Source of the DNA: Candidatus Pacebacteria bacterium CG_4_9_14_0_2_um_filter_40_15
GTDB taxonomy: Bacteria > Patescibacteriota > Microgenomatia > UBA1400 > PJMF01
NCBI GenBank assembly: GCA_002788675.1
Contig: PFRS01000005.1
Location: 199,767-263,766, forward strand
Direction of reading: 5' to 3'
Length of the DNA: 64,000 bases
Below, one piece after another: positions 19,843-37,482 of this stretch (position 1 is the stretch's first letter; each line of letters opens with the position of its first letter). The position numbers and the translations under genes were made by a program. Under the pieces are notes generated by a model. It saw only the letters and a list, made by a program, of their open reading frames with translations, did no database searches and had not been told where the DNA came from.

Positions 19843-22800
19843 GTGACCGAACGTACTACCGATACCACTGTTCAGACACCTGTTCAACTCTCAGAAACAT
19901 TTGAATCTGCAGAATCTCTTTCGCCGCTTGAATTGTATGAACAAAAACGCTTTGCTGACTTGTTTTCTGTGTTCCCAACACTTCCAGAGGCTGCAAAACA
20001 AACCACATTACAACTACTTGCTCAAAAAGAGACTGTTCGACTGCTTGCCACCTACTTTGACCTCCTTGAACTCGATGCTGCAAATCTGGAATATTTGTTT
20101 GGGAACTGTGTAACTTTTGAAACCTGTACGTATTTTTTTGAAAATCTTACCCAAACCACCTTCACCTATGATGAAATCATTGCAACGCTCTTAAAAGTTA
20201 ATACTCAATTAGTAATTCTTGCTTTTCATAACCCTACTGCATTAAGTGCAAAAACCATTGAACTTCTCTCACAAGAAGGACATGACTACTCACATACTTT
20301 TGATCGCCTCATTGATTCCTGTACTAATGATGGAAAAATCGCAATACTTACACATTGGTTAGCTACGTACGAGTACGATACATTAGAGTCATGTATTGAG
20401 AAAACAGTGCACATTCCTCGCCCCTTAGTTGACAAACTGCAATCAATTCTACCCATAGAAGATTTTTTGTTTCATGTTAGTCGTTACGAAAGTTTTGACC
20501 ATGCGTCAGTTTTTGCAAAACTTTCTAAAGCTAATAAACTCTATGAACTGTATTCGTGTGCTCGCTATTTCCCAGAATGTAGCGAGACATTTTATTCTGA
20601 ACAACTGACTGAACACCCTGAGCATGAGATACTTTTAGTTACAAACTTTTCAAATTTCAGACATGATTCAGTCTTAGCTGATATTGAGCAAAGTATCTCA
20701 GCAAACAATTCTAAACATTTTGATGCAGATCGAAAATTAAGAATTCTATTGAATGATCAAATCCCACCTTTTACTTCTGTTACAGATCAGGAAGAGCTCT
20801 TTACCCTTTTAGCAACCCCAAAAACTGTGAGTAGGTGCCTAGCAATTGCCCTATCTACAAAACATTTTAATCTGATTCCACAAAGTGAACTTTTGGTAAG
20901 AATTGCAGGAATTCAAAATGGATACAGTGCACTCTACGATCATATAACAAATCCTTCATATGAATCAGGTATTCATTCAATACCTAATTCACTCTTTCAG
21001 AAATTGTTACTATTCGGTGGCCAAGACAGCTATACTCTCTTTAACAAAACAATTTTAAGTAAAATCGATAATTGGGATCAAAAAATGACTGCACAATTTT
21101 TTGAAGCTCAAAATCTAACTGAATATATATCTTACAAGATGTACTATTTTACAGAGGTAGAGAGCGATTTCTTTATTCGTAATTTTCCAGAAACTGAATT
21201 AGCTTCTGCAGTATATCGACATATACTTTGGGCAAAAAAAGTCTTCACAAAGGACGAGGTCTTCTTTTATCTAAAAAAACACGAAGATTACTCATTTCAT
21301 CAAATGTTGACCTTTGGAAATGAATCCCTCAAAACGTACATAGGAGAGACTGCAACCGATACAGAGTTGAGAGATGCTTTTGATGTAACCACAAAAGAAG
21401 GAGAACACGCTTTTCTCTACTTCAAAAGTAAGTATGTAGTACAGTCAGAACAACTGACTGTTAGTGATCGCATTGAAATTATTTTGGCAGAAGTTCAAAA
21501 CAAAGGCACCCTGCTTTTTGAAATACTCTATAATCAACCAGATCAACTAACCTATACAGACTTACAAGATGTTCTTAAAGTTTATCCAAACCTGTTTACA
21601 TTCAACCAATTTAGTAGATTTATTCATTGCCTTAAATGGGAAACATTCCCAACATCTTTTTTTCAAAAGGTACTAGCTCAAGCAAGTAGTGATAAAAAAT
21701 TTGAAGAAATCATTAGTTGTTTGCCCTGGATTCTCACCCATCTTTCTCCAGTTGTTCGAGAGTCTTTAACAACTGAAATATCAGAAAGCATTGCTGCATG
21801 CGAGCAAAAAGATATTTTTAATATGGTGGAATACTATCTCTCAATATCACGAATTGATGTGGCAGTTTTTATTGTTTCAGAGTTTGCGAAAATACAAGAG
21901 AGCCAAGATTTTTTTCAGCTACTCAGACTCCAAGTGGGAACTGAAAAAATTTCTAAAATAATGCAAAAGCTACTTGAAGAAGAAAATTTTGAGCAAGCAC
22001 ATATACTGCAAAAAAAGAGTAATATCTTCACTCTTGATGATTCGCATCTTTCACTCCCTTCAGAAACCCCTACTGAAAATTCAAAAGATACACTTTCCAC
22101 AATTAAGCGAGATGTAGAAACTATCGATCTTTTTAAAGATTTTGGCCTCTTTTATGCACATAAGTTTTTAGAGTATGAATTAGCACAATTGCATAACCAA
22201 CTTACTTTTCCAAGAACAATTGATCATAATTTTTTGGTTACTCAGCCACAAGAATACAGCTCAACAATACATAGGGCGAGTCTCGATCATATCGAAAAAT
22301 TTTTGGAAAATCAGGCAGAAGCACATACTCAAAAAGTATTACATACCCTGACACAACAACTTGTTGTAGCAACTGATTTTCATACATTCTCACAAGATAA
22401 CTTGCGCAATACAAAAGATGCCTACCTCATGGTGCCTCAACTACCCCAACTCTTACATACTAAATCTGATCTAGTACTAGCATTACAAAAACACATTAAA
22501 GTCTATGAAAAAATTGACAGAAAAGATTGGATGATGATTGCGATGGCTGCATATAGACTCGTCCTCCCAAATGCAAAAGAAAATGCTTCATTTTTACTTG
22601 ACCTTATTACAGATCTTGAACATGGGTCTGGATTTATTTTTTCTAGAGGGTACTACGAAAAATTCACTCTCAGTGACAACGAATACTCTCATAACCAATA
22701 TCGTGCCTTTCTGAGCTTCAAATCATCATGTACTTCCTTTACTGATTGGATTTCACACCTAAGATCTCACAACTATGTCCCGGAACCCCAACTAAAAGAC

Positions 22801-22869
22801 CTAGAAAGTATTTATAAAGCAATCCAACATCTTAAAACCGCCCCAACGCGCGCAAAAGGCTATGAATAA
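19843..22869 (+). CDS. Large hypothetical cytoplasmic protein (1008 aa), no recognisable domains
   Basis: Uninterrupted 3-kb ORF, aromatic/Leu-rich, with no TM. The only N-terminal start is GTG at 19843, with no SD and TATACT 11 nt upstream. The start is uncertain. Confidence 0.55.
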   Translation: MTERTTDTTVQTPVQLSETFESAESLSPLELYEQKRFADLFSVFPTLPEAAKQTTLQLLAQKETVRLLATYFDLLELDAANLEYLFGNCVTFETCTYFFENLTQTTFTYDEIIATLLKVNTQLVILAFHNPTALSAKTIELLSQEGHDYSHTFDRLIDSCTNDGKIAILTHWLATYEYDTLESCIEKTVHIPRPLVDKLQSILPIEDFLFHVSRYESFDHASVFAKLSKANKLYELYSCARYFPECSETFYSEQLTEHPEHEILLVTNFSNFRHDSVLADIEQSISANNSKHFDADRKLRILLNDQIPPFTSVTDQEELFTLLATPKTVSRCLAIALSTKHFNLIPQSELLVRIAGIQNGYSALYDHITNPSYESGIHSIPNSLFQKLLLFGGQDSYTLFNKTILSKIDNWDQKMTAQFFEAQNLTEYISYKMYYFTEVESDFFIRNFPETELASAVYRHILWAKKVFTKDEVFFYLKKHEDYSFHQMLTFGNESLKTYIGETATDTELRDAFDVTTKEGEHAFLYFKSKYVVQSEQLTVSDRIEIILAEVQNKGTLLFEILYNQPDQLTYTDLQDVLKVYPNLFTFNQFSRFIHCLKWETFPTSFFQKVLAQASSDKKFEEIISCLPWILTHLSPVVRESLTTEISESIAACEQKDIFNMVEYYLSISRIDVAVFIVSEFAKIQESQDFFQLLRLQVGTEKISKIMQKLLEEENFEQAHILQKKSNIFTLDDSHLSLPSETPTENSKDTLSTIKRDVETIDLFKDFGLFYAHKFLEYELAQLHNQLTFPRTIDHNFLVTQPQEYSSTIHRASLDHIEKFLENQAEAHTQKVLHTLTQQLVVATDFHTFSQDNLRNTKDAYLMVPQLPQLLHTKSDLVLALQKHIKVYEKIDRKDWMMIAMAAYRLVLPNAKENASFLLDLITDLEHGSGFIFSRGYYEKFTLSDNEYSHNQYRAFLSFKSSCTSFTDWISHLRSHNYVPEPQLKDLESIYKAIQHLKTAPTRAKGYE

Positions 22870-28071: not shown

Positions 28072-29223
28072 ATGAAGAAAGTACTATCTTTCATGTTCTT
28101 AGCAGTTTTATTGTCCGCGTGCCGGATCCCCGGCACTGATTTCGTTATTTTCGAAAGCATTGCTGAAGAAAGTAGCGTAATTGTAGTTGTCGAACCCACC
28201 CCAACCCCTAGCCCAACTCCTGTTGTGGCTATTGAAGACGCTGCTTTTCAATGGGTTCCCGGCGTAGATGCTCGTATTGACAATCTGTTCACTGATCCCA
28301 ACCATGCTTATGGTACCGATACCAATGTTGCATGTGGGACCCCCAACAATGCTGATGGGGTTATTATTCCAGGAGATGCTGTGTATTCAGCCGAAGATCT
28401 CCGCTACATGGAAGAAGGTGATCATGATTATCCCAATGATATCTATGTCGATTGCAAAAATTTTATCGGATGGCAACTACGCATTCTTGATCCCGAAATG
28501 CCCAAAAGCGAAACTGCCGAAGCAACTGCAACCCCGGCCGCTGAAGTTGAAAACACCGATCCAATTGGTGAAGAAGTTTTAACCGCTGATGGTACCTGGC
28601 GCGTCAAGCTGTGGCAAGATTTGTCATATGGCCCTGAACTGGGTCACAGCCGTCCTGGCTTCGGAACTTCAATTAATGAGATTGGCATCGCCGTTGGCGT
28701 TGACCTGTCCGTTATCATTGATGGTAAAGAAGTAATGCTCGGTGGTGGATGTAACCAAATCGCCGTTATGCCAGAAAGTTACGCCCGCGACGCGGGTGGG
28801 AACGACTGGGGCTACCGCTCATACCAGTTCAATCCTGAGGTCACGCAGGCCTTGGATGAACTCGTGGTGCTGAACCACGAATGGGCACGTGCGCAGATTA
28901 ACGACGAAGATTGTCCCGAACTGTCCGACGAAGAACTGCTGATTCACACCTTTGTGTTTTGGCAAGATTCTGAAGGCGTAGATCACCTCCAACCATGGCA
29001 AGAGTTCCGTCGGGCAACCGGCGAGGACAATGTCATCATGGTTCACCCGTCTGACGGGGCCATGATCGGTTGGCATTGTGGCGAAGGCGACAGCCAAGAC
29101 AACCTGGCCGACAACGGCCAGTGTTTTGTCGAGGATGTTAACTTCTGGGGTTACCTTGGTGGTGGCGTTGTCCACCCCTGGGAAGGTGAAGTCCCGGCTA
29201 ATACCGTAGACGTCACCAAATAA
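28072..29223 (+). CDS. Lipoprotein of unknown function, markedly GC-rich (putative horizontally acquired)
   Basis: Lipobox LLSAC and SD GGAGG. Codon usage is rich in GCC/GGC/CCC, with local GC visibly ~50-55% against ~38% around it. It has a Pro/Thr linker and an acidic domain. Confidence 0.65.
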   Translation: MKKVLSFMFLAVLLSACRIPGTDFVIFESIAEESSVIVVVEPTPTPSPTPVVAIEDAAFQWVPGVDARIDNLFTDPNHAYGTDTNVACGTPNNADGVIIPGDAVYSAEDLRYMEEGDHDYPNDIYVDCKNFIGWQLRILDPEMPKSETAEATATPAAEVENTDPIGEEVLTADGTWRVKLWQDLSYGPELGHSRPGFGTSINEIGIAVGVDLSVIIDGKEVMLGGGCNQIAVMPESYARDAGGNDWGYRSYQFNPEVTQALDELVVLNHEWARAQINDEDCPELSDEELLIHTFVFWQDSEGVDHLQPWQEFRRATGEDNVIMVHPSDGAMIGWHCGEGDSQDNLADNGQCFVEDVNFWGYLGGGVVHPWEGEVPANTVDVTK

Positions 29224-29667: not shown

Positions 29668-31530
29668 TTATTCCCTTACTACCCAATTGTCTTGATTTAT
29701 GACCCATCCAGGAGCTTCTAGCTGTATATCTGGGTTCTCCCAAAAGATCTTAAAACTTACCCAATCAGAAACATCTATTGGGCCTGCTACAAAGCCACGT
29801 TCTGCACCAATACTCTTCCATTCAGGTGAAAATAAAACTGAAGAATCCATCCCAGGAATGCCCCCGACTTCAAGTTGTGTGTCCTTTTCTAGATTCCAGA
29901 GTTCTAACCAGAGCGTATTTTCGGTTCCTTTTATAACAAATTCGGGTTCAATTACTCTGAAAACCGTAAAGATGTCGCCTTCATAGACTACAGGATACCT
30001 TGACCAGAAGTGATCTATGTATGGATCTATATCACACATACGTCCCGGATAGTTTCTGCTATCGACTAAGATGTAGTCTTTAGGCTCAAATTTTTGATAA
30101 TCAGAAATTCTGAGACTAAATGATTGCCAAGATGGACAACTTTCAAAAAAGCGAAACCCCAATACATTTCCATCTCTTTCTAGAGTATTTAGGACAAAGG
30201 GTGAATACTCTTCAAGAATGGTCAGTACTTTAGCATCCTTCTCAATCATTGATTGAATACCGGTATACTCAGATTGCATGGACTCGTTCCAAAGTTCATA
30301 TGAACCAAACGAAGCATAGGCTTGAATGTACTTCCACCAACTTATCGGACCAAACCAAGTTCCCATAAGTATATCTAGAACTAACAGCAACATACCAAAA
30401 AATTGAGCAACACCGCTCTGTTTATATAACGTTCTAACCAAATCAAAGAAACTAGATGCGCCCACACCAAATAATAAAGCAGCTGGTAAAACCCAGGGTA
30501 ATGCATAGTAATCGTGCGTTCGTGTTCCCCAAGAAAGCAACGCTGTCAACAAAATACAGCTTAATACCCATGTTACTAAGACTGTTGAAGAAAATCGTGA
30601 GTTTTTTTTAACTGAAACAAACAGACCCACCGATGCAAAGAAACCGCCAAGTGGAGTGAGTAACTCACCAAATAATCTTTCAGTTCCAAAGGTAATTGGC
30701 CACTGTGTCTCCTTCCAAAATGGAAAATACCCCTTATGACCATGCATAAGCGTAAGAAAATCGGGATCTGAGCGAACCGAATCTGGAAAGGTGGCTATCC
30801 ACAGACGCCAGAGCAATAACAAAAGTAAAGGTATACCCAGTGCAAGTACTGCTTGAACCAAGAATGTAGCGACTTGTTTGTTTTTTCTGGTCCCAATAAG
30901 TACTTTTACTAACTGTTGCAGATGTTCTCCAAAAAGAGCTACAAATAAAAGTAGTCCAAAAAGTACGTAACTTGGTTTTGAAAGTATTGCCAACCCAAAT
31001 CCAAGACTCATCACGAGTAACCACTTACTATTAGTTTTAGCCTTCACCGCAGCATAGACAGATAAGGAAAATCCAAAAAGTGACAGAATATCAGGAGTAA
31101 CCGCTCTTCCCCAGAATGAAAACCCCGGAAAAAACTGCATAGCAACTGCACCAACTGCACCAGGCAAATCTGACTTAAATAACAGTCTGCCAGTTAAAAA
31201 AACAATAACTCCAATGCCACATGCAAGCAAAATGTTTACAAATCTGACTGCAACTAGACCAGTAGACACAGTCGAGACAAAACCAATGATAGCTTCATAA
31301 AAAGGCACTTCTGCTAAAAAATATCTCCCAGTGTTGGCTGGATCTGGGGCATGATAAAAGGTTGGAGCAAAAAAACTAGCTTCACCAGAGGCCAACTTTT
31401 GGCTAATTACCCAAGTATCTGTCTGCCTGAAATTGTGCCTGTCAACAAGTGGTCGCTCTATATTGTAGAGGCGCGAGAGAATACCAGCTACAAAAATACA
31501 CAAAAATACCACCCAGAATCTCTTTTTCAT
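29668..31530 (-). CDS. GT-C fold membrane glycosyltransferase, GT39/GT83 (PMT/ArnT)-like, with C-terminal soluble domain
   Basis: ~11 TM helices over 430 aa. The N-terminal region RLYNIERPLVDRHNFRQTDTW...FYHAPDP resembles the first loop of PMT_2/ArnT-like enzymes. There is a ~200-aa C-terminal extracytoplasmic domain. The start is probably MKKRFWVV. Confidence 0.45.
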   Translation of the reverse strand: MKKRFWVVFLCIFVAGILSRLYNIERPLVDRHNFRQTDTWVISQKLASGEASFFAPTFYHAPDPANTGRYFLAEVPFYEAIIGFVSTVSTGLVAVRFVNILLACGIGVIVFLTGRLLFKSDLPGAVGAVAMQFFPGFSFWGRAVTPDILSLFGFSLSVYAAVKAKTNSKWLLVMSLGFGLAILSKPSYVLFGLLLFVALFGEHLQQLVKVLIGTRKNKQVATFLVQAVLALGIPLLLLLLWRLWIATFPDSVRSDPDFLTLMHGHKGYFPFWKETQWPITFGTERLFGELLTPLGGFFASVGLFVSVKKNSRFSSTVLVTWVLSCILLTALLSWGTRTHDYYALPWVLPAALLFGVGASSFFDLVRTLYKQSGVAQFFGMLLLVLDILMGTWFGPISWWKYIQAYASFGSYELWNESMQSEYTGIQSMIEKDAKVLTILEEYSPFVLNTLERDGNVLGFRFFESCPSWQSFSLRISDYQKFEPKDYILVDSRNYPGRMCDIDPYIDHFWSRYPVVYEGDIFTVFRVIEPEFVIKGTENTLWLELWNLEKDTQLEVGGIPGMDSSVLFSPEWKSIGAERGFVAGPIDVSDWVSFKIFWENPDIQLEAPGWVINQDNWVVRE

Positions 31531-31588
31531 ATATCTATAATAGCAGTTTTTAGCCAAGTTGTCTCATATTTAATATAATCCTATAATA

Positions 31589-31617
31589 TTGACGTATTAC
31601 TGTTTCCGTGTTATAAT
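31589..31617 (+). promoter_or_regulatory. Sigma70 promoter TTGACG-17-TATAAT preceded by ATAATCCTATAATA element
   Basis: The 19-nt block ATAATCCTATAATATTGAC is identical to the one at 32468-32487. Confidence 0.55.
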
Positions 31618-31722
31618 TACCTCAAGTTAAGTAATTTTGCTTGACTGTATATCCTGAAATACTAGCGCATGCAGACGCTGCGTAATGTATTTTAGGACTG
31701 CACATTCACATAGGAGAAAAAA

Positions 31723-32412
31723 GTGAAAAGAATCTTATTGATCCTAGGGACATTCGTTCCTACAATTCTTATTCTGTTCGTCTCATCTGTGGTTTTTGCT
31801 AAACCAGCAGATCTGACAGCCACTGTGTTTGGTAGCGGTGAAACCTTTACCATTACGGTAGAAGGCGGCACAGGCCTCGAGCAAATCGAAGCCTATACAC
31901 CAAACCAATTGGTCTTTACACCGGAATGGACTTTGATCACCACTAATACATACCAGGCCGTGATCACAAGCACTACTGGCTGGGACAGCTTCACGCTGTT
32001 CTGGAAAGACCAAACCTGGGTAGATCAACATGACACCTGGGAAAATAACGGTGACGGTTTTATGGTCCGCGCTCAAACACCGCCGGCACCACAACCAAAT
32101 CCAATTACTGCAACCGTTACTGGTCAAGGTGAAAGCTTTACCATAACGGTAGAAGGCGGGACAGGAACCGAGCAATTAGAAGTGTACCGACCTGATCAGT
32201 ATGTCTTTACGCCGGATTGGACGCTAGTTACAACTGGCACCTATCAGGCGATCATAACAGACACAACGGGTTGGGACAGCTTCACGCTGTTCTGGTTAGA
32301 TCAAACCTGGGTTGATCAACATTCTACCTGGGAAGATAACGGTGACGGCTTTATGATTCGTTCACCTAAACAGGTATTTTGGTCCTTCCTTCCGTTCATT
32401 CGGAAGGACTAG
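31723..32412 (+). CDS. Secreted protein built from two tandem ~84-aa repeat domains; GC-elevated
   Basis: GTG start with SD AGGAG and a signal peptide. Repeat units share TITVEGGTG.EQ.E.Y.P.Q.VFTP.WTL.TT.TYQA.IT.TTGWDSFTLFW.DQTWVDQH.TWE.NGDGFM.R. Confidence 0.7.
   Translation: MKRILLILGTFVPTILILFVSSVVFAKPADLTATVFGSGETFTITVEGGTGLEQIEAYTPNQLVFTPEWTLITTNTYQAVITSTTGWDSFTLFWKDQTWVDQHDTWENNGDGFMVRAQTPPAPQPNPITATVTGQGESFTITVEGGTGTEQLEVYRPDQYVFTPDWTLVTTGTYQAIITDTTGWDSFTLFWLDQTWVDQHSTWEDNGDGFMIRSPKQVFWSFLPFIRKD
31819..32361 (+). repeat. Tandem direct coding repeat, 2 x ~252 nt (~80% nt identity) separated by a 39-nt Pro-rich linker
   Basis: Repeats 31819-32070 and 32110-32361 share an identical 25-mer CTGGGACAGCTTCACGCTGTTCTGG. 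Confidence 0.8.
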
Positions 32413-32426
32413 TTCTCCTCTGTGTT

Positions 32427-32468
32427 AGCCCCCGGCCTCTGAAAAGAGATCCCGGGGGCTTTCTATTT
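32427..32468 (+). terminator. Rho-independent terminator (AGCCCCCGG...CCGGGGGCT + TTTCTATTT)
   Basis: 9-bp GC-rich stem. Confidence 0.65.
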
Positions 32469-32482
32469 ATAATCCTATAATA

Positions 32483-32511
32483 TTGACAAATCACCATTTA
32501 AATGCTATACT
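32483..32511 (+). promoter_or_regulatory. Sigma70 promoter TTGACA-17-TATACT preceded by ATAATCCTATAATA element; near-leaderless transcript for GT2 gene
   Basis: The -10 ends 10 nt before ATG 32522. The track ORF start at 32483 is the TTG of the -35 itself. Confidence 0.55.
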
Positions 32512-32521
32512 TGTATCTAGT

Positions 32522-33382
32522 ATGAAACAAAAAGACACACATACACCAATAATCAGTGTCGTTATGCCTGTGCACAATGCAGCGGCGTACGTTTCCCAAG
32601 CAATTGAGAGTATTCTCAATCAAACTTTCACTGATTTTGAGTTTATTATTCTCGATGACTATTCTACCGACGATTCTCTTACGATTATTAAAAAATGGTC
32701 TAAAACAGATTCTCGCATTAAAGTCATCTCTAACACCAAAAAACCTGGTGTAAGTTCTGCGGCCAATCAGCTACATGCTGCGGCACAAGGAATGTATATA
32801 GCCCGTATGGATGCTGATGACATTTCAGAACCTACTCGACTAGAAGTGCAGCTTTTAGTTTTCAAAAAGTATCCTAAAACAGTTGCCGTTGGTAGCCAGT
32901 GTACCGTTATTGATGAAAATAACGCTACTATTGGTGAAAAAACTTTTCCTACAAAGCCTTCAGACATTAAAAAGATGTCTGGATATCTCTATCCTGTGCA
33001 ACAGCCTTCTGTGATGTTTGCTACCAAACGTATTCCATCAGATTTTGTCTGGTATGACGAATCACTTTCATCTGCTGAAGAACATGAACTCCTCTTTAAG
33101 CTTATGCAGTTTGGTGACATTCGAAACACAAAAGAATCACTTTTACAGTATCGATTACATGCAACTAATACTTCAAAAGTACATCCTAAAAAGGATTACT
33201 CAGCCATCCTGAGAGCCCGAATCACTGGATTCACTACCTATGGCGTACCACTTACAGCTAAAGCTGTAGTACTTAACATTGTTCAATTCATCTTTGTAAG
33301 CCTCTTACCTGAGAAGGCACTCTTTAGCATATTCAGCCTCCTTAGAGGCATGAACAGAAAGGAGACCGCATATGAAAAATAA
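32522..33382 (+). CDS. Family 2 glycosyltransferase
   Basis: N-terminus ISVVMPVHNAAAYVSQAIESILNQTFTDFEFIILDDYSTDDS (GT-A fold, DxD region). Confidence 0.8.
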   Translation: MKQKDTHTPIISVVMPVHNAAAYVSQAIESILNQTFTDFEFIILDDYSTDDSLTIIKKWSKTDSRIKVISNTKKPGVSSAANQLHAAAQGMYIARMDADDISEPTRLEVQLLVFKKYPKTVAVGSQCTVIDENNATIGEKTFPTKPSDIKKMSGYLYPVQQPSVMFATKRIPSDFVWYDESLSSAEEHELLFKLMQFGDIRNTKESLLQYRLHATNTSKVHPKKDYSAILRARITGFTTYGVPLTAKAVVLNIVQFIFVSLLPEKALFSIFSLLRGMNRKETAYEK

Positions 33383-34127
33383 ACAACTATTACCATCACT
33401 CTCTCTCTTTTATCCTGCATATAATGAGGCAGGAAATATTGAGGAAGCAGTAAAACAAGCACTCCAAGTGCTTCCAACTGTTGCTAAAAAATTTGAGATC
33501 ATTGTTATTAATGATGGAAGTAAAGATGCAACCTTAACTATTTCGAAGCGTTTAGCTAAGCGATATGCACCGGTTCGTGTAATTACACAAAAGAACCGAG
33601 GATATGGTGGTGCACTTAAACGTGGCTTTAAAACTGCCAAGTATGAGTGGATCTTCTTTACAGACTCAGACTTACAGTTTGACTTATCTGAACTCCAACG
33701 GTTCATACCACATACTAGAAATAATAAAATTGTCATTGGCTACCGTAAGCAGCGTGCAGAAGGTAAAAATCGACAGATGCTTGCTACTATGTTAAAAATC
33801 TGGAGTAAAGTTATCCTGGGATTCCCTTCAGGTGTAAAAGATATTGACTGTGCTTTTAAGTTAATTCATAAGTCTGTGCTCAACACAGTCGGTGAATTAA
33901 AATCAGATGGTGCTATGGTATCTACTGAGTTCTTACTAAAAACACATTTAGCAGGGTTTACCATTAAACAGCTTGGTGTAACTCATCAGCTCAGAATGCA
34001 TGGTACTCAAACGGGTAATAATCCTATGGTTATCGCTAAAGCCATTAAAGACACATTCGTACTTAAACAATCACTTGTTCAAGAGTATGTCATGCAAAAG
34101 CAAGCACAGCTTGCATCACTAGCATAA
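33372..34127 (+). CDS. Polyprenyl-phosphate glycosyltransferase (GtrB/DPM1/ArnC-like GT2)
   Basis: LSLFYPAYNEAGNIEEAV...FEIIVINDGSKDAT...QKNRGYGGALKRGF...FFTDSDLQFD matches the DPM1/GtrB polyprenol-P-sugar synthase pattern. It overlaps the upstream GT2 by 11 nt. Confidence 0.7.
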   Translation: MKNKQLLPSLSLFYPAYNEAGNIEEAVKQALQVLPTVAKKFEIIVINDGSKDATLTISKRLAKRYAPVRVITQKNRGYGGALKRGFKTAKYEWIFFTDSDLQFDLSELQRFIPHTRNNKIVIGYRKQRAEGKNRQMLATMLKIWSKVILGFPSGVKDIDCAFKLIHKSVLNTVGELKSDGAMVSTEFLLKTHLAGFTIKQLGVTHQLRMHGTQTGNNPMVIAKAIKDTFVLKQSLVQEYVMQKQAQLASLA

Positions 34128-34149
34128 TCCAGACTACAATGGGTGTGCA

Positions 34150-37100
34150 ATGATACAGCGTATTACCCAACACTTTCGACGTTTTTTTACACCTCATATT
34201 ATGCTGTTAGCCTTGTGCTGGCTTGCTATTGTGTTTACGAATTTCAATCCGGGCACTTGGCTCATTGGTTGGGATAATCTCATTCCTGAAGTAAATATTT
34301 TCCTAAACCTGTACAAAACAATCTTTTCTGCTTGGCAAAGTTGGCAAGGTCTGGGTATAGTTGGTGGCATTGCTCATGCTTCAGAACTGAGCCGAGAACT
34401 CATACTTCTCCCCTTTGCACTTATTCTTCCTGGTGAACTCATTAGATACATCTGGACTTTTGCAATGCTGTTAGTTGGAATGCTTGGTACCTACCACTTA
34501 GCACTTTGGCTACTAAAAGAGTCTAAGCATTCAACATGGATAGCCTTAGTAGTAGCTGTAGCCTATACTTTTAATTTAGCAACTATTCAAAACTTTTTTG
34601 TACCATTAGAAGCCTTCTCAACTTTTTGGGGCTTTTTTCCTCTATTTTTATTGACTGCTTTTAAGCTGGTCAAAAATCCTAGCAAAAAAAGTATCTTTTT
34701 CTTTGCGCTGATACAGTTTCTTGGAGCTTCTGCCTTTCACGTCCAAACTATGTTTATCGTGTATTCACTTGTGTTAGGTATTTTCACGCTAGCAAGTCTA
34801 ATCAGCTCTCGTGGACAAAACATTAAGGCACTTTGTGTACTTTGGATAACACTCATTCTTGTGCATTTTTATTGGCTCGCACCAGTTGGCTACTTTACCC
34901 TTACAAATGCACAGCAAACTGTGGATTCGAAACAAAATAGTATTTCCACACAAGAAGTTTTTGAATCTAATAAAGCCGCAGGATCACTTACCAATATACT
35001 CAGACTAAAGGGATATTGGTTTAACTATACAGATAGCAACCCAAATGGGACCCAGTATCTTATGGATGCATGGGAAAAACATACCAACTCACTGCCGGTT
35101 GCTGTGGGAAGTATCTTGATAAGTCTTGTTGGTATTGGGGGATATATTCTCTATCTTAGATCCTTGGATGCAGATACACATGTTCGCACAGAATATATCG
35201 TGTTCTTCCTCACAGCAACACTGCTAGCAATTTCAATGCTCACAACAGGTAAAGGCATAGTTGGGCTAGGCTATACAGTCATTACAAAATTACCGCTCCT
35301 TGGACAAGTCTTTAGAGTTCCATTCACCAAGTGGTCTGTGGTACTTTCACTCTTCATTTCAATTGGAATTGGCTATTTTCTCAGCTATGTTACTGCACAA
35401 AAAAAACTATTGGTTATGGGTGCGACAGCACTCTTTATTGCATTGGCTAGCATTTTTAGCGCAGCGCCTCTCTTTAGTGGCGGACTCTTTTATAGTAACG
35501 TACAACTTTCACTGCCCAGTGCCTATTCTCACTTATTCGAAGAACTCTCAACACAACCAACCACTAATCGGATTCTCTACCTTCCTTTTGATGACTTTTG
35601 GGGATGGATGAATCATGATTGGGGCTACCGAGGAAGTGGTTTTATTTGGTACGGAATAAAGCAACCAATCATTGACAGAAATTTTGATGTGTGGAGTGTA
35701 AGAAATGAGACACTCTACACACAACTTCAACAAACACTCCAAACCAAAAACACAGCCGAGACAGAGATTTTACTTGATAAATATGACATTTCTCTACTTT
35801 TAATCGACACCAGCATACAAGCCAATCAAAAAAGAAAACAAGAAACTGCCGATACTATTCAAGCATTAGAAAAAACTGGGTACATATCTAAAATTTGGGA
35901 AGACGACTTTCTCAGTCTCTATAAAACAACAATTGAATCAGGTGAATTACAGGTAACTCATTCAGAAGGTATCCAACCACTTGAAAAAAGACTCATTACT
36001 GATACTGTGGCATATGCTGGTAGCTACTACTTTGACTCAAATAGTCAGCTGCATCTGCCCCTACAGAATCTACTCACTGAATCAATTTCAAGTCAGCGAA
36101 TGCAAGTTCAAAATGATCAGATTGTAGTACCACTTCTGAACCAAGCATCAAAAATCACCATCCCCTCATTAGAAGGAATGAAACAAATGTATGGTATTCA
36201 GCTGATTGGAAATAAGCTCACTATTGAACCAATCGCACCTCTTCACTTGCTAGATACAAAAACAAATACAACCCGAGACATCTACTCTTTGACAAAAATG
36301 GAGTACACTTTCGATACCTTAGGAAAGAAAATTTATCTAGATATCAACGACACTCTTTTCACATTGAATGAAACTGAGTATCGACAAATTATTCTTCCAG
36401 AAATAATTTCTCAACCAGTTACCATGAAAATATCTAGTGCTGAAGATATTTCCACAGTTGATGAAAATACGTTACAAAGCACTCGATACCAAGAATTACA
36501 TGTCCCCTCAACGCTTTGGCAGGACTTGCTGAGCGAGAAAATACTTGAATCCGGACCAGATGAGCAATTGTTACTAGCAACTCTGAGTGAGCTCTTACCC
36601 TTTGACGCATCAGATACTGTTGCAAATAATTGTGATGCACTTTCTCGGGGAACTACAGCTAAACAAATAACTGACCAACATACCAGTGTGTATACTTCTA
36701 ATGATTTTGGCATCTTCTGTGATGGAAGTTCTACTCAAAAAATGCAAGCAAACCAAGACCATTTCCTAAAGATAACCGCCACTAATACAACTGGCTTGCC
36801 ACTCAGATTTTATATTAAAAATAATGCTACAGAAACTATTTTGCTAGAACAGGTACTCACTGATTCAGCTAACTACTTCTTCGTTCCTCAAGACATTTCT
36901 AACGGTAACCTATCAGTGAATATCCAAAATAAATCCACCGGAACTCTGAGTAAAAATACTCTTATAGACGTCAGTCTCCATGAACTCCCTATTCATTTAG
37001 CACTACTGGGGAAAATTAAAGTCAGTCCAGTCTCTTCAAATGCTGTTGAGACACAGTCAACAGAAGAATCGCCATCAGATCTTTCAGTATCAAAATTTAG

Positions 37101-37482
37101 TACATTCAAAATCGGTAATTTTTTATACTTCATTTCATTCGCATCTCAATCTGAACAAGAAAAAGACGCAACCCTATTGACTGTATCTCAGAGCTATGAC
37201 GCCGGATGGATCGCATTCTCTTATTCAGCATTCCCAACCCCGCTACGACATGTGGAAGTAGATGGTTGGAAAAATGGATGGGAGATTCAAAATGGAAAAA
37301 ATGCACTCTTCATACTCTATTGGCCACAATTAGGTGTCTTTTTGGGATACATTTTGCTATTTATAGTGTTAAAACACGTTTACTTAGGTGTGAAATTAGA
37401 AAAAAGTGAAAATACTCAAAAAAAACGACGGGCACGACAACTGTACCGGGTGCCTAAAAAAATTCTGGGTGGCAAAAAATAA
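34150..37482 (+). CDS. 1110-aa polytopic membrane protein: N-terminal ~13-TM domain + ~650-aa extracytoplasmic domain + C-terminal TM; putative GT-C type (YfhO/ArnT-like) glycosyltransferase
   Basis: The topology is inferred from hydrophobic helices in aa 1-440 and one near the C-terminus. It is adjacent to the GtrB-like gene. Motif-level identity is not established. Confidence 0.4.
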   Translation: MIQRITQHFRRFFTPHIMLLALCWLAIVFTNFNPGTWLIGWDNLIPEVNIFLNLYKTIFSAWQSWQGLGIVGGIAHASELSRELILLPFALILPGELIRYIWTFAMLLVGMLGTYHLALWLLKESKHSTWIALVVAVAYTFNLATIQNFFVPLEAFSTFWGFFPLFLLTAFKLVKNPSKKSIFFFALIQFLGASAFHVQTMFIVYSLVLGIFTLASLISSRGQNIKALCVLWITLILVHFYWLAPVGYFTLTNAQQTVDSKQNSISTQEVFESNKAAGSLTNILRLKGYWFNYTDSNPNGTQYLMDAWEKHTNSLPVAVGSILISLVGIGGYILYLRSLDADTHVRTEYIVFFLTATLLAISMLTTGKGIVGLGYTVITKLPLLGQVFRVPFTKWSVVLSLFISIGIGYFLSYVTAQKKLLVMGATALFIALASIFSAAPLFSGGLFYSNVQLSLPSAYSHLFEELSTQPTTNRILYLPFDDFWGWMNHDWGYRGSGFIWYGIKQPIIDRNFDVWSVRNETLYTQLQQTLQTKNTAETEILLDKYDISLLLIDTSIQANQKRKQETADTIQALEKTGYISKIWEDDFLSLYKTTIESGELQVTHSEGIQPLEKRLITDTVAYAGSYYFDSNSQLHLPLQNLLTESISSQRMQVQNDQIVVPLLNQASKITIPSLEGMKQMYGIQLIGNKLTIEPIAPLHLLDTKTNTTRDIYSLTKMEYTFDTLGKKIYLDINDTLFTLNETEYRQIILPEIISQPVTMKISSAEDISTVDENTLQSTRYQELHVPSTLWQDLLSEKILESGPDEQLLLATLSELLPFDASDTVANNCDALSRGTTAKQITDQHTSVYTSNDFGIFCDGSSTQKMQANQDHFLKITATNTTGLPLRFYIKNNATETILLEQVLTDSANYFFVPQDISNGNLSVNIQNKSTGTLSKNTLIDVSLHELPIHLALLGKIKVSPVSSNAVETQSTEESPSDLSVSKFSTFKIGNFLYFISFASQSEQEKDATLLTVSQSYDAGWIAFSYSAFPTPLRHVEVDGWKNGWEIQNGKNALFILYWPQLGVFLGYILLFIVLKHVYLGVKLEKSENTQKKRRARQLYRVPKKILGGKK

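What the first reader, a model, noticed from the sequence alone, without database searches (positions are those of the whole stretch)
31723..32412. Secreted protein made of a recent tandem domain duplication (2 x 84 aa, ~80% nt identity)
Repeats 31819-32070 and 32110-32361 encode near-identical beta-rich domains (TITVEGGTG.EQ.E.Y.P.Q.VFTP.WTL.TT.TYQA.IT.TTGWDSFTLFW.DQTWVDQH.TWE.NGDGFM.R) joined by a PPAPQPNP linker. They include an identical 25-mer, so the duplication is recent or maintained by gene conversion. The domain family is unrecognised. The position beside glycosyltransferases suggests it may be a glycosylation substrate or a carbohydrate-binding module.
Basis: seen in the sequence. 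Interest (0 to 1): 0.5.

Follow-up and report, generated by a model that had tools for sequence, protein, structure and literature searches.

The report
Orphan secreted protein, two old beta-sandwich repeats
A groundwater candidate-phyla-radiation (CPR) bacterium encodes a small exported protein made of two similar beta-sandwich domains; the duplication is real but old rather than recent, the family is almost unique to this organism, and the domain may be a distant copy of the outer tail of the sugar-transferring enzyme next door.

Summary
ORF 31723-32412 (+) encodes 229 aa: an N-terminal signal peptide, two in-frame 86-aa repeats 291 nt apart, a QTPPAPQPNPI linker and a 15-aa tail. The repeats are 75-76% identical in DNA and 78% in protein. 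The longest identical run is 24 nt, not 25.

The "recent or gene-converted" reading is not supported. Synonymous sites are saturated (dS about 1.25) and dN/dS is 0.13. Neither the 24-nt run (P=0.11) nor the best low-divergence tract (P=0.12) beats permutation. The only credible relative among 1.84 billion representative proteins is P0012, at 31% identity, and it also has two repeats.

The new lead is the C-terminal ~90 aa of the divergently transcribed GT-C glycosyltransferase. It is the best non-self match to both repeats (phmmer E=0.0017, hhalign E=8e-4). I take this as probable but unproven paralogy.

My best reading is an extracytoplasmic binding or accessory protein of this envelope-glycosylation locus, possibly itself O-glycosylated. 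It is ordinary in kind and an orphan in sequence.

The parts
31574..31593 (+). 20-mer TATAATCCTATAATATTGAC, copy 1. It overlaps the -35 hexamer of this gene's promoter. It is the start of a 54-nt promoter-region repeat (31574-31627) that is 74% identical to 32468-32521.
   Evidence: The 20-mer occurs exactly twice in the 64-kb window, even with 3 mismatches allowed; 0 are expected. It belongs to repeat family D2.
31589..31617 (+). Sigma-70-type promoter TTGACG-17 nt-TATAAT with a TG extended -10 (11 of 12 consensus matches).
   Evidence: Consensus scan. Pattern match only; not tested experimentally.
31623..31722 (+). 5' leader of about 100 nt, strongly structured, with the AGGAG Shine-Dalgarno sequence at 31712-31716.
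   Evidence: MFE is -34 kcal/mol with z=-5.2; none of 200 shuffles folds as well. No Rfam match at gathering score or at E<=1.
31723..32412 (+). ORF of 229 aa (GTG start, stop included). The mature protein is about 203 aa: 18% Thr, 5.4% Trp, no Cys, and 26 Asp/Glu against 8 Lys/Arg.
   Evidence: The identical protein is deposited as 'hypothetical protein', Candidatus Pacebacteria/Paceibacterota (NCS97054.1, PIR64073.1, PJA69149.1, PJC41718.1).
31723..31800 (+). Signal peptide (M/V)KRILLILGTFVPTILILFVSSVVFA, with the predicted cut before KPADL.
   Evidence: Read from the sequence. AlphaFold models residues 2-21 as a single helix. No signal-peptide predictor was available, so an uncleaved membrane anchor is not excluded.
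31816..32073 (+). Repeat 1 (86 aa).
32074..32106 (+). Pro-rich linker QTPPAPQPNPI.
   Evidence: Low pLDDT in the full-length model (residues 108-127).
32107..32364 (+). Repeat 2 (86 aa).
   Evidence: The model of R2 plus tail has pLDDT 70-89 over residues 1-70 and eight strands.
32365..32409 (+). C-terminal tail PKQVFWSFLPFIRKD. Its FW and (F/Y)LP(F/I)I elements align with the tail of P0012 (DFW...YLPIIF).
   Evidence: Alignments. Modelled at low confidence. It is too short for a membrane helix and has no LPXTG-type motif (read from the sequence).
32427..32469 (+). Intrinsic terminator: a GC-rich hairpin followed by a T-rich run.
   Evidence: Inverted repeat I2. Fold energy -25.5 kcal/mol, z=-4.6.
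32468..32521 (+). Second copy of the 20-mer and promoter region (TTGACA-17 nt-TATACT at 32483-32511). It drives the downstream GT2 genes, whose real ATG is at 32522.
   Evidence: Gene calls of 286 aa in public contigs.
29671..29946 (-). C-terminal ~92 aa of the adjacent GT-C glycosyltransferase. It aligns along the whole repeat at 24-25% identity and is a probable paralogue of the repeat domain.
   Evidence: BLASTP E=3e-4 (R1) and 2e-3 (R2). phmmer makes it the best non-self hit of 615 window ORFs: 14.0 bits, E=0.0017 (R1) and 12.1 bits, E=0.0059 (R2). Shuffle test P<=2e-4. The best of 615 reversed plus 4607 unrelated ORFs scores only 6.7 bits. hhalign E=8e-4 over 65 columns, but probability only 24%. 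Five-sequence alignment.
29668..31530 (-). GT-C glycosyltransferase (Pfam PMT_2 and PMT, both above their cut-offs), transcribed divergently from the ORF.
   Evidence: A 620-aa gene call from ATG 31530 in public contigs.
32522..37482 (+). Downstream operon. It holds a GT2 (32522-33382), a second GT2 resembling polyprenyl-phosphate sugar synthases such as DPM synthase, ArnC and GtrB (33372-34127), and a 1110-aa polytopic membrane protein with no family match (34150-37482).

Best explanation
The gene is a real, monocistronic gene of a CPR (Patescibacteria, 'Pacebacteria') bacterium. Its protein is probably exported by Sec. The mature ~22-kDa product is acidic, Thr- and Trp-rich and Cys-free, and consists of two Ig-like beta-sandwich domains joined by a Pro-rich linker.

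The two domains come from an old tandem duplication. They stay alike because of purifying selection on the protein, not because the duplication is recent.

The domain belongs to a tiny lineage-restricted family. It is probably a paralogue of the extracytoplasmic C-terminal beta-domain of the divergently transcribed GT-C glycosyltransferase.

I infer that the protein works outside the membrane with that glycosylation module, which pairs a polyprenyl-phosphate-sugar synthase-like GT2 with the GT-C. The most likely role is a bivalent binding or accessory module for the glycan or acceptor that the GT-C handles. Its Pro/Thr linker may also be O-glycosylated.

**Shown:** the anatomy, the age and selection regime of the repeats, the orphan status and the gene context.
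**Inferred:** export, the fold class, the paralogy with the GT-C tail and the function.
For: **Gene anatomy.** The promoter matches 11/12 consensus positions with an extended -10. There is an AGGAG Shine-Dalgarno sequence, and a terminator hairpin of -25.5 kcal/mol.

**Repeats.** They are 75% identical in nt and 78% in aa. Of the differing codons, 25 are synonymous and 19 non-synonymous. dS=1.25, dN=0.16, omega=0.13.

**Family size.** Only P0012 (31% identity over 184 aa, pairwise E=5e-12) shares the architecture of signal peptide, two repeats and tail, among 1.84 billion representatives. Per-domain scores are 26.8 and 15.6 bits for P0012, against at most 15 bits for all other hits.

**Link to the GT-C tail.** See; the figures are listed under parts.

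**Context.** The neighbours are PMT_2/PMT GT-C, two GT2 enzymes and a large membrane protein. One GT2 matches DPM synthase, ArnC and GtrB over most of its length. The synteny is identical in every public contig recovered.

**Organism.** RecA is 82% identical to a Ca. Paceibacterota MAG and 64% to Woesebacteria.
Against: - No family or solved structure gives a functional handle.
- The GT-C-tail similarity is weak. It reaches 12-14 bits, hhalign probability is 24%, and the 4-sequence profile gives only E=0.24 in the window.
- I first spotted that similarity by eye in the neighbouring gene. Ig-like repeats from unrelated proteins reach similar per-domain scores when 1.84 billion proteins are searched.
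- Adjacency to glycosyltransferases may be coincidental. GC3 of the gene is 0.47 against a window mean of 0.30 (sd 0.07). The duplicated promoter region also fits a later insertion of the gene as a cassette.
- No binding, glycosylation or expression data exist.
Confidence: 0.4

Rival explanations
1. The protein is mainly a substrate. It would be a surface or secreted glycoprotein whose Pro/Thr linker, and possibly its Thr-rich strands, are O-glycosylated during export by the adjacent PMT-type GT-C. The lipid-linked sugar would be made by the GT2 that resembles DPM synthase. This mirrors the Ppm1/Pmt protein O-mannosylation of actinobacteria.
For: - The protein has a signal peptide.
- It is 18% Thr, and the linker AQTPPAPQPNPITAT is of the Pro/Thr/Ala-rich kind that is mannosylated in mycobacterial glycoproteins (my knowledge; composition).
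- The neighbour passes the Pfam cut-offs of both PMT and PMT_2.
- One GT2 resembles DPM synthase, ArnC and GtrB.
- The lipoprotein on the other side of the GT-C (28072-29223) also carries a PTPTPSPTP linker.
- Bacterial GT-39 PMTs are widespread and little studied (PMC11727336).
Against: - PMT_2 is a broad GT-C family whose members also modify lipids and polysaccharides.
- The enzyme has no PDB relative by sequence and no GT39-specific C-terminal domain hit.
- No acceptor consensus exists to test against.
- This reading does not explain the resemblance of the repeat to the enzyme's own C-terminal domain.
Confidence: 0.25
2. The protein is a lineage-specific surface or adhesion protein unrelated to the glycosylation genes. 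It could serve host or particle attachment in an episymbiotic CPR cell. It would have been acquired horizontally as a promoter-ORF-terminator cassette that happened to land between the GT-C and the GT2 operon.
For: - GC3 is 0.47 against a window mean of 0.30, 2.5 sd above it and opposite to the ribosomal-protein genes (0.20-0.25).
- The cassette-like unit spans 894 bp and is bounded by two copies of a 20-mer/54-nt promoter region found nowhere else in the window.
- The gene has its own terminator.
- The phyletic distribution is extremely narrow.
- 7 of 11 SNPs seen in about 61 kb of near-identical contigs fall in this 690-nt gene. Six of them cluster in a 66-nt tract with 3 non-synonymous changes. 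This is typical of exposed, diversifying surface proteins.
Against: - The best non-self match in the window is the neighbouring GT-C tail. That argues against a random landing site.
- The raised GC3 is shared by some other exported proteins in the window, so it may not mean transfer.
- The SNP clustering amounts to about two independent events.
Confidence: 0.2
3. One reading: the two repeats are a recent duplication, or are being homogenised by ongoing gene conversion.
For: - Repeat identity of 78% aa is far higher than between the two repeats of P0012 (38%).
- Synonymous divergence is uneven along the repeat: pS is 0.40 in codons 1-17, 0.82 in codons 18-50 and 0.49 in codons 51-86.
- There is a 24-nt identical run.
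Against: - Overall dS is about 1.25, which is saturated.
- The identical run has permutation P=0.11.
- The best low-synonymous tract has scan-statistic P=0.12.
- The population SNPs in R2 do not move it towards R1: only 1 of the 3 positions inside the repeat does (compared).
- No copy-number variants were found.
Confidence: 0.1

Closest known systems
Tandem bacterial Ig-like domain surface proteins (Pfam Big_9, Big_12 and similar; filamin/E-set-type sandwiches)
   Same: Both have Thr/Gly-rich all-beta units of about 85-90 aa arranged in tandem on exported proteins. The only sub-threshold sequence echoes in 1.84 billion proteins are such repeats. The structural neighbours of the model are FN3, filamin and E-set domains.
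   Different: No Pfam Ig-like model scores, even at E<=1. Per-repeat scores to those proteins are at most 15 bits. This protein has only two copies, no cell-wall anchor and no enzymatic or adhesin passenger domain.
Extracytoplasmic C-terminal domains of GT-C glycosyltransferases (for example the carbohydrate-binding C-terminal modules of mycobacterial EmbC/AftD; my knowledge)
   Same: The repeat aligns end to end with the last ~92 aa of the neighbouring PMT_2-type GT-C. That region lies after the membrane domain and so outside the cell.
   Different: Here the domain is also a free-standing, duplicated, secreted protein. Homology rests on weak statistics, and neither structure nor ligand is known. 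No sequence relation to Emb/AftD modules was tested or found.
Carbohydrate-binding modules such as CBM56, and the Ig-like modules next to glycoside hydrolase catalytic domains
Sec-exported O-mannosylated proteins of Actinobacteria with the Ppm1/Pmt pair (PMC11727336; reference list there)
   Same: All the elements are present in one locus: a signal peptide, a Pro/Thr-rich linker, a PMT-family GT-C and a polyprenyl-phosphate sugar synthase-like GT2.
   Different: The organism is a CPR bacterium. The GT-C is not shown to be GT39 and has a different C-terminal region. Glycosylation of this protein is untested.

Membership tests
Any described protein family (Pfam-A, NCBIfam, PHROGs) | Score at or above the family's curated cut-off | tested here: not met
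   The whole protein and the single repeats gave only sub-threshold noise: FAD_binding_4 at 20.7 against a cut-off of 26.4, DUF5992 at 18.9 against 23.8, and NF046115 at 15.5 against 625.
Proteins with a solved structure | Sequence similarity to a PDB chain | tested here: not met
   The profile of four repeats against PDB sequences gave a best E of 0.31.
Ig-like / E-set beta-sandwich fold class | Two-sheet sandwich of 7-8 strands, superposable on Ig/FN3/filamin domains | tested here: inconclusive
Carbohydrate-binding module | Membership of a CAZy CBM family, or shown glycan binding | not testable with these tools
Recent tandem duplication / concerted evolution | Low synonymous divergence between copies, or statistically supported conversion tracts | tested here: not met
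   dS=1.25 and omega=0.13. The run test gives P=0.11 and the tract scan P=0.12.
Paralogue of the neighbouring GT-C C-terminal domain | Significant, collinear sequence similarity over the whole domain | tested here: inconclusive
   phmmer E=0.0017 and 0.0059 in the window, with decoy maxima of 6.7 bits against 14.0 and 12.1 bits. BLASTP E=3e-4. hhalign E=8e-4 but probability 24%. The 4-sequence HMM gives E=0.24.
Substrate of bacterial protein O-mannosylation (Ppm1/Pmt type) | Export signal; Ser/Thr-Pro-rich acceptor segment; a PMT-family GT-C and a polyprenyl-P-sugar synthase present; glycan detected on the protein | not testable with these tools
   The first three features are present by sequence. 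The defining one, an attached glycan, cannot be tested here.
Covalently anchored surface proteins (lipoprotein; sortase LPXTG; PEP-CTERM/PGF-CTERM type) | Lipobox Cys, or a C-terminal motif followed by a membrane helix and a basic tail | tested here: not met
   The protein has no Cys. The tail PKQVFWSFLPFIRKD has a hydrophobic stretch of only about 9 residues and no LPXTG, PEP or PGF motif (read).

The most novel reading that the evidence does not exclude
The repeat is a previously undescribed extracytoplasmic module that exists in two forms: fused to the C-terminus of a CPR GT-C glycosyltransferase, and free as a duplicated secreted protein next door. The free form would act as a soluble, bivalent partner for the enzyme's acceptor or product, for example by capturing, presenting or measuring an envelope glycan, or by tethering the symbiont to a host glycan. 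Its gene would have arrived or been rebuilt as a GC3-rich cassette with a copied promoter, and would be diversifying in the population.
Probability: 0.15. Interest if true: 0.5.

Novelty: new member of a known kind. Interest (0 to 1): 0.3.

Why it matters
CPR bacteria are uncultured, mostly episymbiotic, and full of exported proteins of unknown function. Their envelope glycosylation is essentially unstudied.

If the link to the GT-C tail is real, this locus offers a small, tractable pair for study: a ~22-kDa soluble protein plus the enzyme's own domain. It could be used to ask what these abundant PMT_2-type enzymes recognise.

Otherwise this is one more lineage-specific, Ig-like exported protein. 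The main practical result is the correction that its internal duplication is old and selectively maintained, not recent.

Tried and rejected
**Searches for more family members.**
- The word-indexed search of 5.8 billion proteins, run with the whole protein, with a 4-repeat alignment and with P0012, returned only the queries' own clusters.
- The exhaustive HMMER search returned P0012 plus repeat-rich Ig-like proteins. I rejected the latter as relatives because each repeat scores at most 15 bits and the E-values come from summing 5-24 repeats.
- Pattern scans of genome, metagenome and viral contig collections with the family alignment found nothing.
- A metagenome scan with the GT-C also found nothing, so synteny in related genera could not be examined.

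**Structure.**
- The single-sequence AlphaFold model of the whole protein was too poor to use (pLDDT 55).
- The afdb50 fold library was unavailable.

**Gene conversion.** The identical run and the low-synonymous tract were tested and are not significant. Rooting the four repeats with the GT-C tail gave no resolution beyond pairwise identities.

**Other readings considered and rejected.**
- A riboswitch or known RNA in the leader: no Rfam match.
- The 207-aa database forms as truncated variants: they are alternative start calls on identical DNA.
- The PDB sequence searches for the GT-C and the 1110-aa protein were empty.

Full report
**1. What is in the sequence.**
The ORF 31723-32412 (+) is present and encodes 229 aa from a GTG start. 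An AGGAG Shine-Dalgarno sequence lies at 31712-31716, 6 nt upstream.

A near-consensus sigma-70-type promoter (TTGACG, 17 nt, TATAAT, with TG before the -10) lies at 31589-31617. This leaves a leader of about 100 nt. That leader folds unusually well (-34 kcal/mol, z=-5.2) but matches no Rfam family, even at E<=1.

A GC-rich hairpin followed by a T-rich run at 32427-32469 (-25.5 kcal/mol, z=-4.6) ends the transcript. The gene therefore looks monocistronic.

The N-terminus (KR, about 20 hydrophobic residues, then VFA|KP) reads as a Sec signal peptide. The protein has no Cys, so it is not a lipoprotein. Export and cleavage are inferences from the sequence.

**2. The repeats.**
The repeat finder gives a single family, 31816-32069 and 32107-32360, at 76% identity with a 291-nt offset.

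In codon register the unit is 86 aa, with 194/258 nt (75%) and 67/86 aa (78%) identical. Differences by codon position are 16, 11 and 37. Of the differing codons, 25 are synonymous and 19 non-synonymous. The longest identical run is 24 nt.

**3. Age of the duplication.**
- Nei-Gojobori counting gives pS=0.61 (dS about 1.25, essentially saturated), dN=0.16 and omega=0.13.
- Permuting codon columns gives a run of at least 24 nt in 11% of trials.
- Synonymous divergence is uneven: pS is 0.40, 0.82 and 0.49 in codons 1-17, 18-50 and 51-86.
- A scan statistic for the tract poorest in synonymous changes picks codons 57-80, with 2 changes in 18 degenerate conserved codons. It is matched by 12% of permutations.

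There is therefore no statistical support for a conversion tract. The copies are old and are kept similar by selection on the protein.

**4. Relatives.**
The word-indexed search of 5.8 billion proteins found only the protein's own cluster.

That cluster holds six sequence variants seen on about 60 contigs. They are named 'hypothetical protein' of Candidatus Pacebacteria/Paceibacterota (NCS97054.1, PIR64073.1, PJA69149.1, PJC41718.1). All have two repeats. The 207-aa forms are alternative start calls on identical DNA.

The exhaustive HMMER search of 1.84 billion representatives with the two-repeat profile gave 14 hits. Only one is credible: P0012, 241 aa, from another JGI metagenome. It shares 31% identity over 184 aa (pairwise E=5e-12). 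It also shares the architecture of signal peptide, two repeats and a tail ending YLPIIF, compared with FLPFIRKD here. Its per-domain scores are 26.8 and 15.6 bits.

The other hits are large proteins made of Big_9 or Big_12-type Ig-like repeats, or of uncharacterised repeats. Each repeat scores at most 15 bits, and the low E-values come from summing 5-24 repeats. I do not count them as relatives, only as an echo of the Ig-like repeat style.

Further searches with the 4-repeat alignment, with P0012, and with pattern scans of genome, metagenome and viral contigs found nothing.

P0012's two repeats are 38% identical to each other. Identity between this protein's repeats and P0012's repeats is 30-38% for P0012 R1 and 22-28% for P0012 R2. 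Its duplication is thus about as old as the split between the two proteins. The two-domain layout is probably ancestral. However, a later re-duplication or an old homogenisation in this lineage cannot be told apart from the four sequences available.

**5. Fold.**
No Pfam, NCBIfam, PHROG or PDB sequence match exists.

AlphaFold on the whole protein without an alignment was poor (pLDDT 55) but all-beta after the signal helix.

R2 plus tail, run with the four repeats as the alignment, gave pLDDT 67 and pTM 0.60. Residues 1-70 reach 70-89, and the model has eight strands.

The domain is therefore most likely a generic Ig-like beta-sandwich with no specific family assignment.

**6. Surroundings.**
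The window is chromosomal DNA of a CPR bacterium. RecA is 82% identical to a Ca. Paceibacterota MAG and 62-64% to Woesebacteria and Shapirobacteria. The window also carries a ribosomal-protein operon, SecY, EF-Tu, RNase Y and FemAB.

- Upstream and divergent lies a GT-C glycosyltransferase that passes both the PMT_2 and PMT cut-offs.
- Downstream lie a GT2, and a second GT2 that aligns over most of its length with DPM synthase, ArnC and GtrB. These enzymes load a sugar onto polyprenyl phosphate.
- Next is a 1110-aa polytopic membrane protein without any match, followed by a lamin-tail-domain protein.

A polyprenyl-P-sugar synthase plus a GT-C is the classical pair for glycosylating something outside the membrane (established knowledge). 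What the acceptor is here is unknown.

**7. A link to the neighbouring enzyme.**
Reading the GT-C's C-terminus, I noticed the same motif pattern as in the repeat (TQLEV, LFSPEW, WVSFKIFW, NWVVR).

Tests of this resemblance:
- BLASTP aligns both repeats to GT-C residues 572-628 (E=3e-4 and 2e-3).
- Among all 615 six-frame ORFs of the window, the GT-C is the best non-self hit of both repeats by phmmer. It scores 14.0 bits (E=0.0017) for R1 and 12.1 bits (E=0.0059) for R2.
- Smith-Waterman scores exceed 5000 shuffles at P<=2e-4.
- The best score among 615 reversed ORFs and 4607 ORFs from unrelated loci is 6.7 bits.
- hhalign aligns 65 columns from the first strands to the FW motif, with E=8e-4 but probability only 24%.
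- A five-sequence alignment is collinear over the whole ~90 aa at 24-25% identity.

Against this, the 4-sequence HMM gives only E=0.24. I regard paralogy as probable, not shown.

**8. Other features of the locus.**
- *Promoter repeat.* The 20-mer TATAATCCTATAATATTGAC occurs exactly twice in 64 kb, at 31574 and 32468. Each copy spans the -35 hexamer of a promoter, one for this gene and one for the GT2 operon. The similarity continues for 54 nt at 74% identity. The promoter, leader, ORF and terminator thus form an 894-bp unit bounded by promoter copies.
- *Composition.* GC3 of the gene is 0.47 against a window mean of 0.30 (sd 0.07). It is matched only by the lipoprotein gene on the other side of the GT-C, at 0.48. 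Both features fit a later insertion, but they could equally reflect promoter reuse and composition effects.
- *Polymorphism.* All public contigs are 99.9-100% identical to the window, yet 7 of the 11 SNPs seen lie in this gene. Six of them fall in 32332-32397 of one ENA contig, and three of those are non-synonymous. This looks like an imported diverged tract and suggests that other alleles exist.

**9. Interpretation.**
- *Shown:* a real, well-signalled gene; an old in-frame tandem duplication under purifying selection; near-orphan status; an envelope-glycosylation neighbourhood.
- *Inferred:* export; an Ig-like sandwich fold; paralogy with the GT-C tail.

From these I favour an extracytoplasmic binding or accessory role tied to the GT-C. 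Two copies of a Trp-rich sandwich related to the enzyme's own outer domain would bind what that domain binds. I give this about 0.4.

The substrate model rests on the Pro/Thr linker and the 18% Thr content. I give 0.2 to an unrelated, horizontally acquired surface protein. 'Recent duplication or ongoing conversion' is largely contradicted.

**10. Verdict.**
The finding is real but ordinary in kind. It is a lineage-specific exported tandem beta-sandwich protein, already deposited as a hypothetical protein. The one new lead worth a follow-up is the resemblance to the neighbouring GT-C's C-terminal domain.

Noticed in passing
window 31623-31730 (+): The ~100-nt 5' leader of the gene folds far better than shuffles (-34 kcal/mol, z=-5.2). 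It forms two hairpins, and the Shine-Dalgarno sequence and GTG start sit in a third small hairpin. There is no Rfam match even at E<=1. All known copies are identical, so covariation cannot be tested.
   Followed up: partly
window 31574-31627 and 32468-32521 (+): A promoter region is duplicated. A perfectly conserved 20-mer (TATAATCCTATAATATTGAC, itself containing TATAAT twice) is found only at these two sites in 64 kb. The two copies bound an 894-bp promoter-ORF-terminator unit. This could mark a shared regulator site or be the footprint of a cassette insertion.
   Followed up: partly
window 32332-32397; L082 (ENA ERZ17986938) 884-949: Six SNPs, three of them non-synonymous, fall within 66 nt at the 3' end of the gene in a contig that otherwise differs at 1 position in 6.9 kb. 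A separate contig (L001) has its only difference in 8.5 kb at 32035, in repeat 1 (Thr to Pro). The gene is a local polymorphism hot spot in a near-clonal population.
   Followed up: partly
window 28072-29223 (+): This 383-aa predicted lipoprotein has an LSAC lipobox and a PTPTPSPTP linker, and no family match. Its GC reaches 0.55 and its GC3 is 0.48, in a window of 39% GC. It is the second compositionally atypical exported-protein gene flanking the GT-C.
   Followed up: no
window 32483-32525 (+) and 31530-31565 (-): The mechanical ORF start of the GT2 (TTG 32483) is actually the -35 hexamer. The real ATG at 32522 lies only about 5 nt after the predicted transcription start. The GT-C (ATG 31530) shows a similar arrangement. 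Both mRNAs may be leaderless.
   Followed up: no
window 34150-37482 (+) and 19843-22869 (+): Two very large proteins (1110 and 1008 aa) have no Pfam match. The 1110-aa one also has no NCBIfam or PDB-sequence match. It has an N-terminal polytopic region and a C-terminal membrane helix, and it sits in the glycosyltransferase operon. It may be another GT-C-like enzyme.
   Followed up: partly
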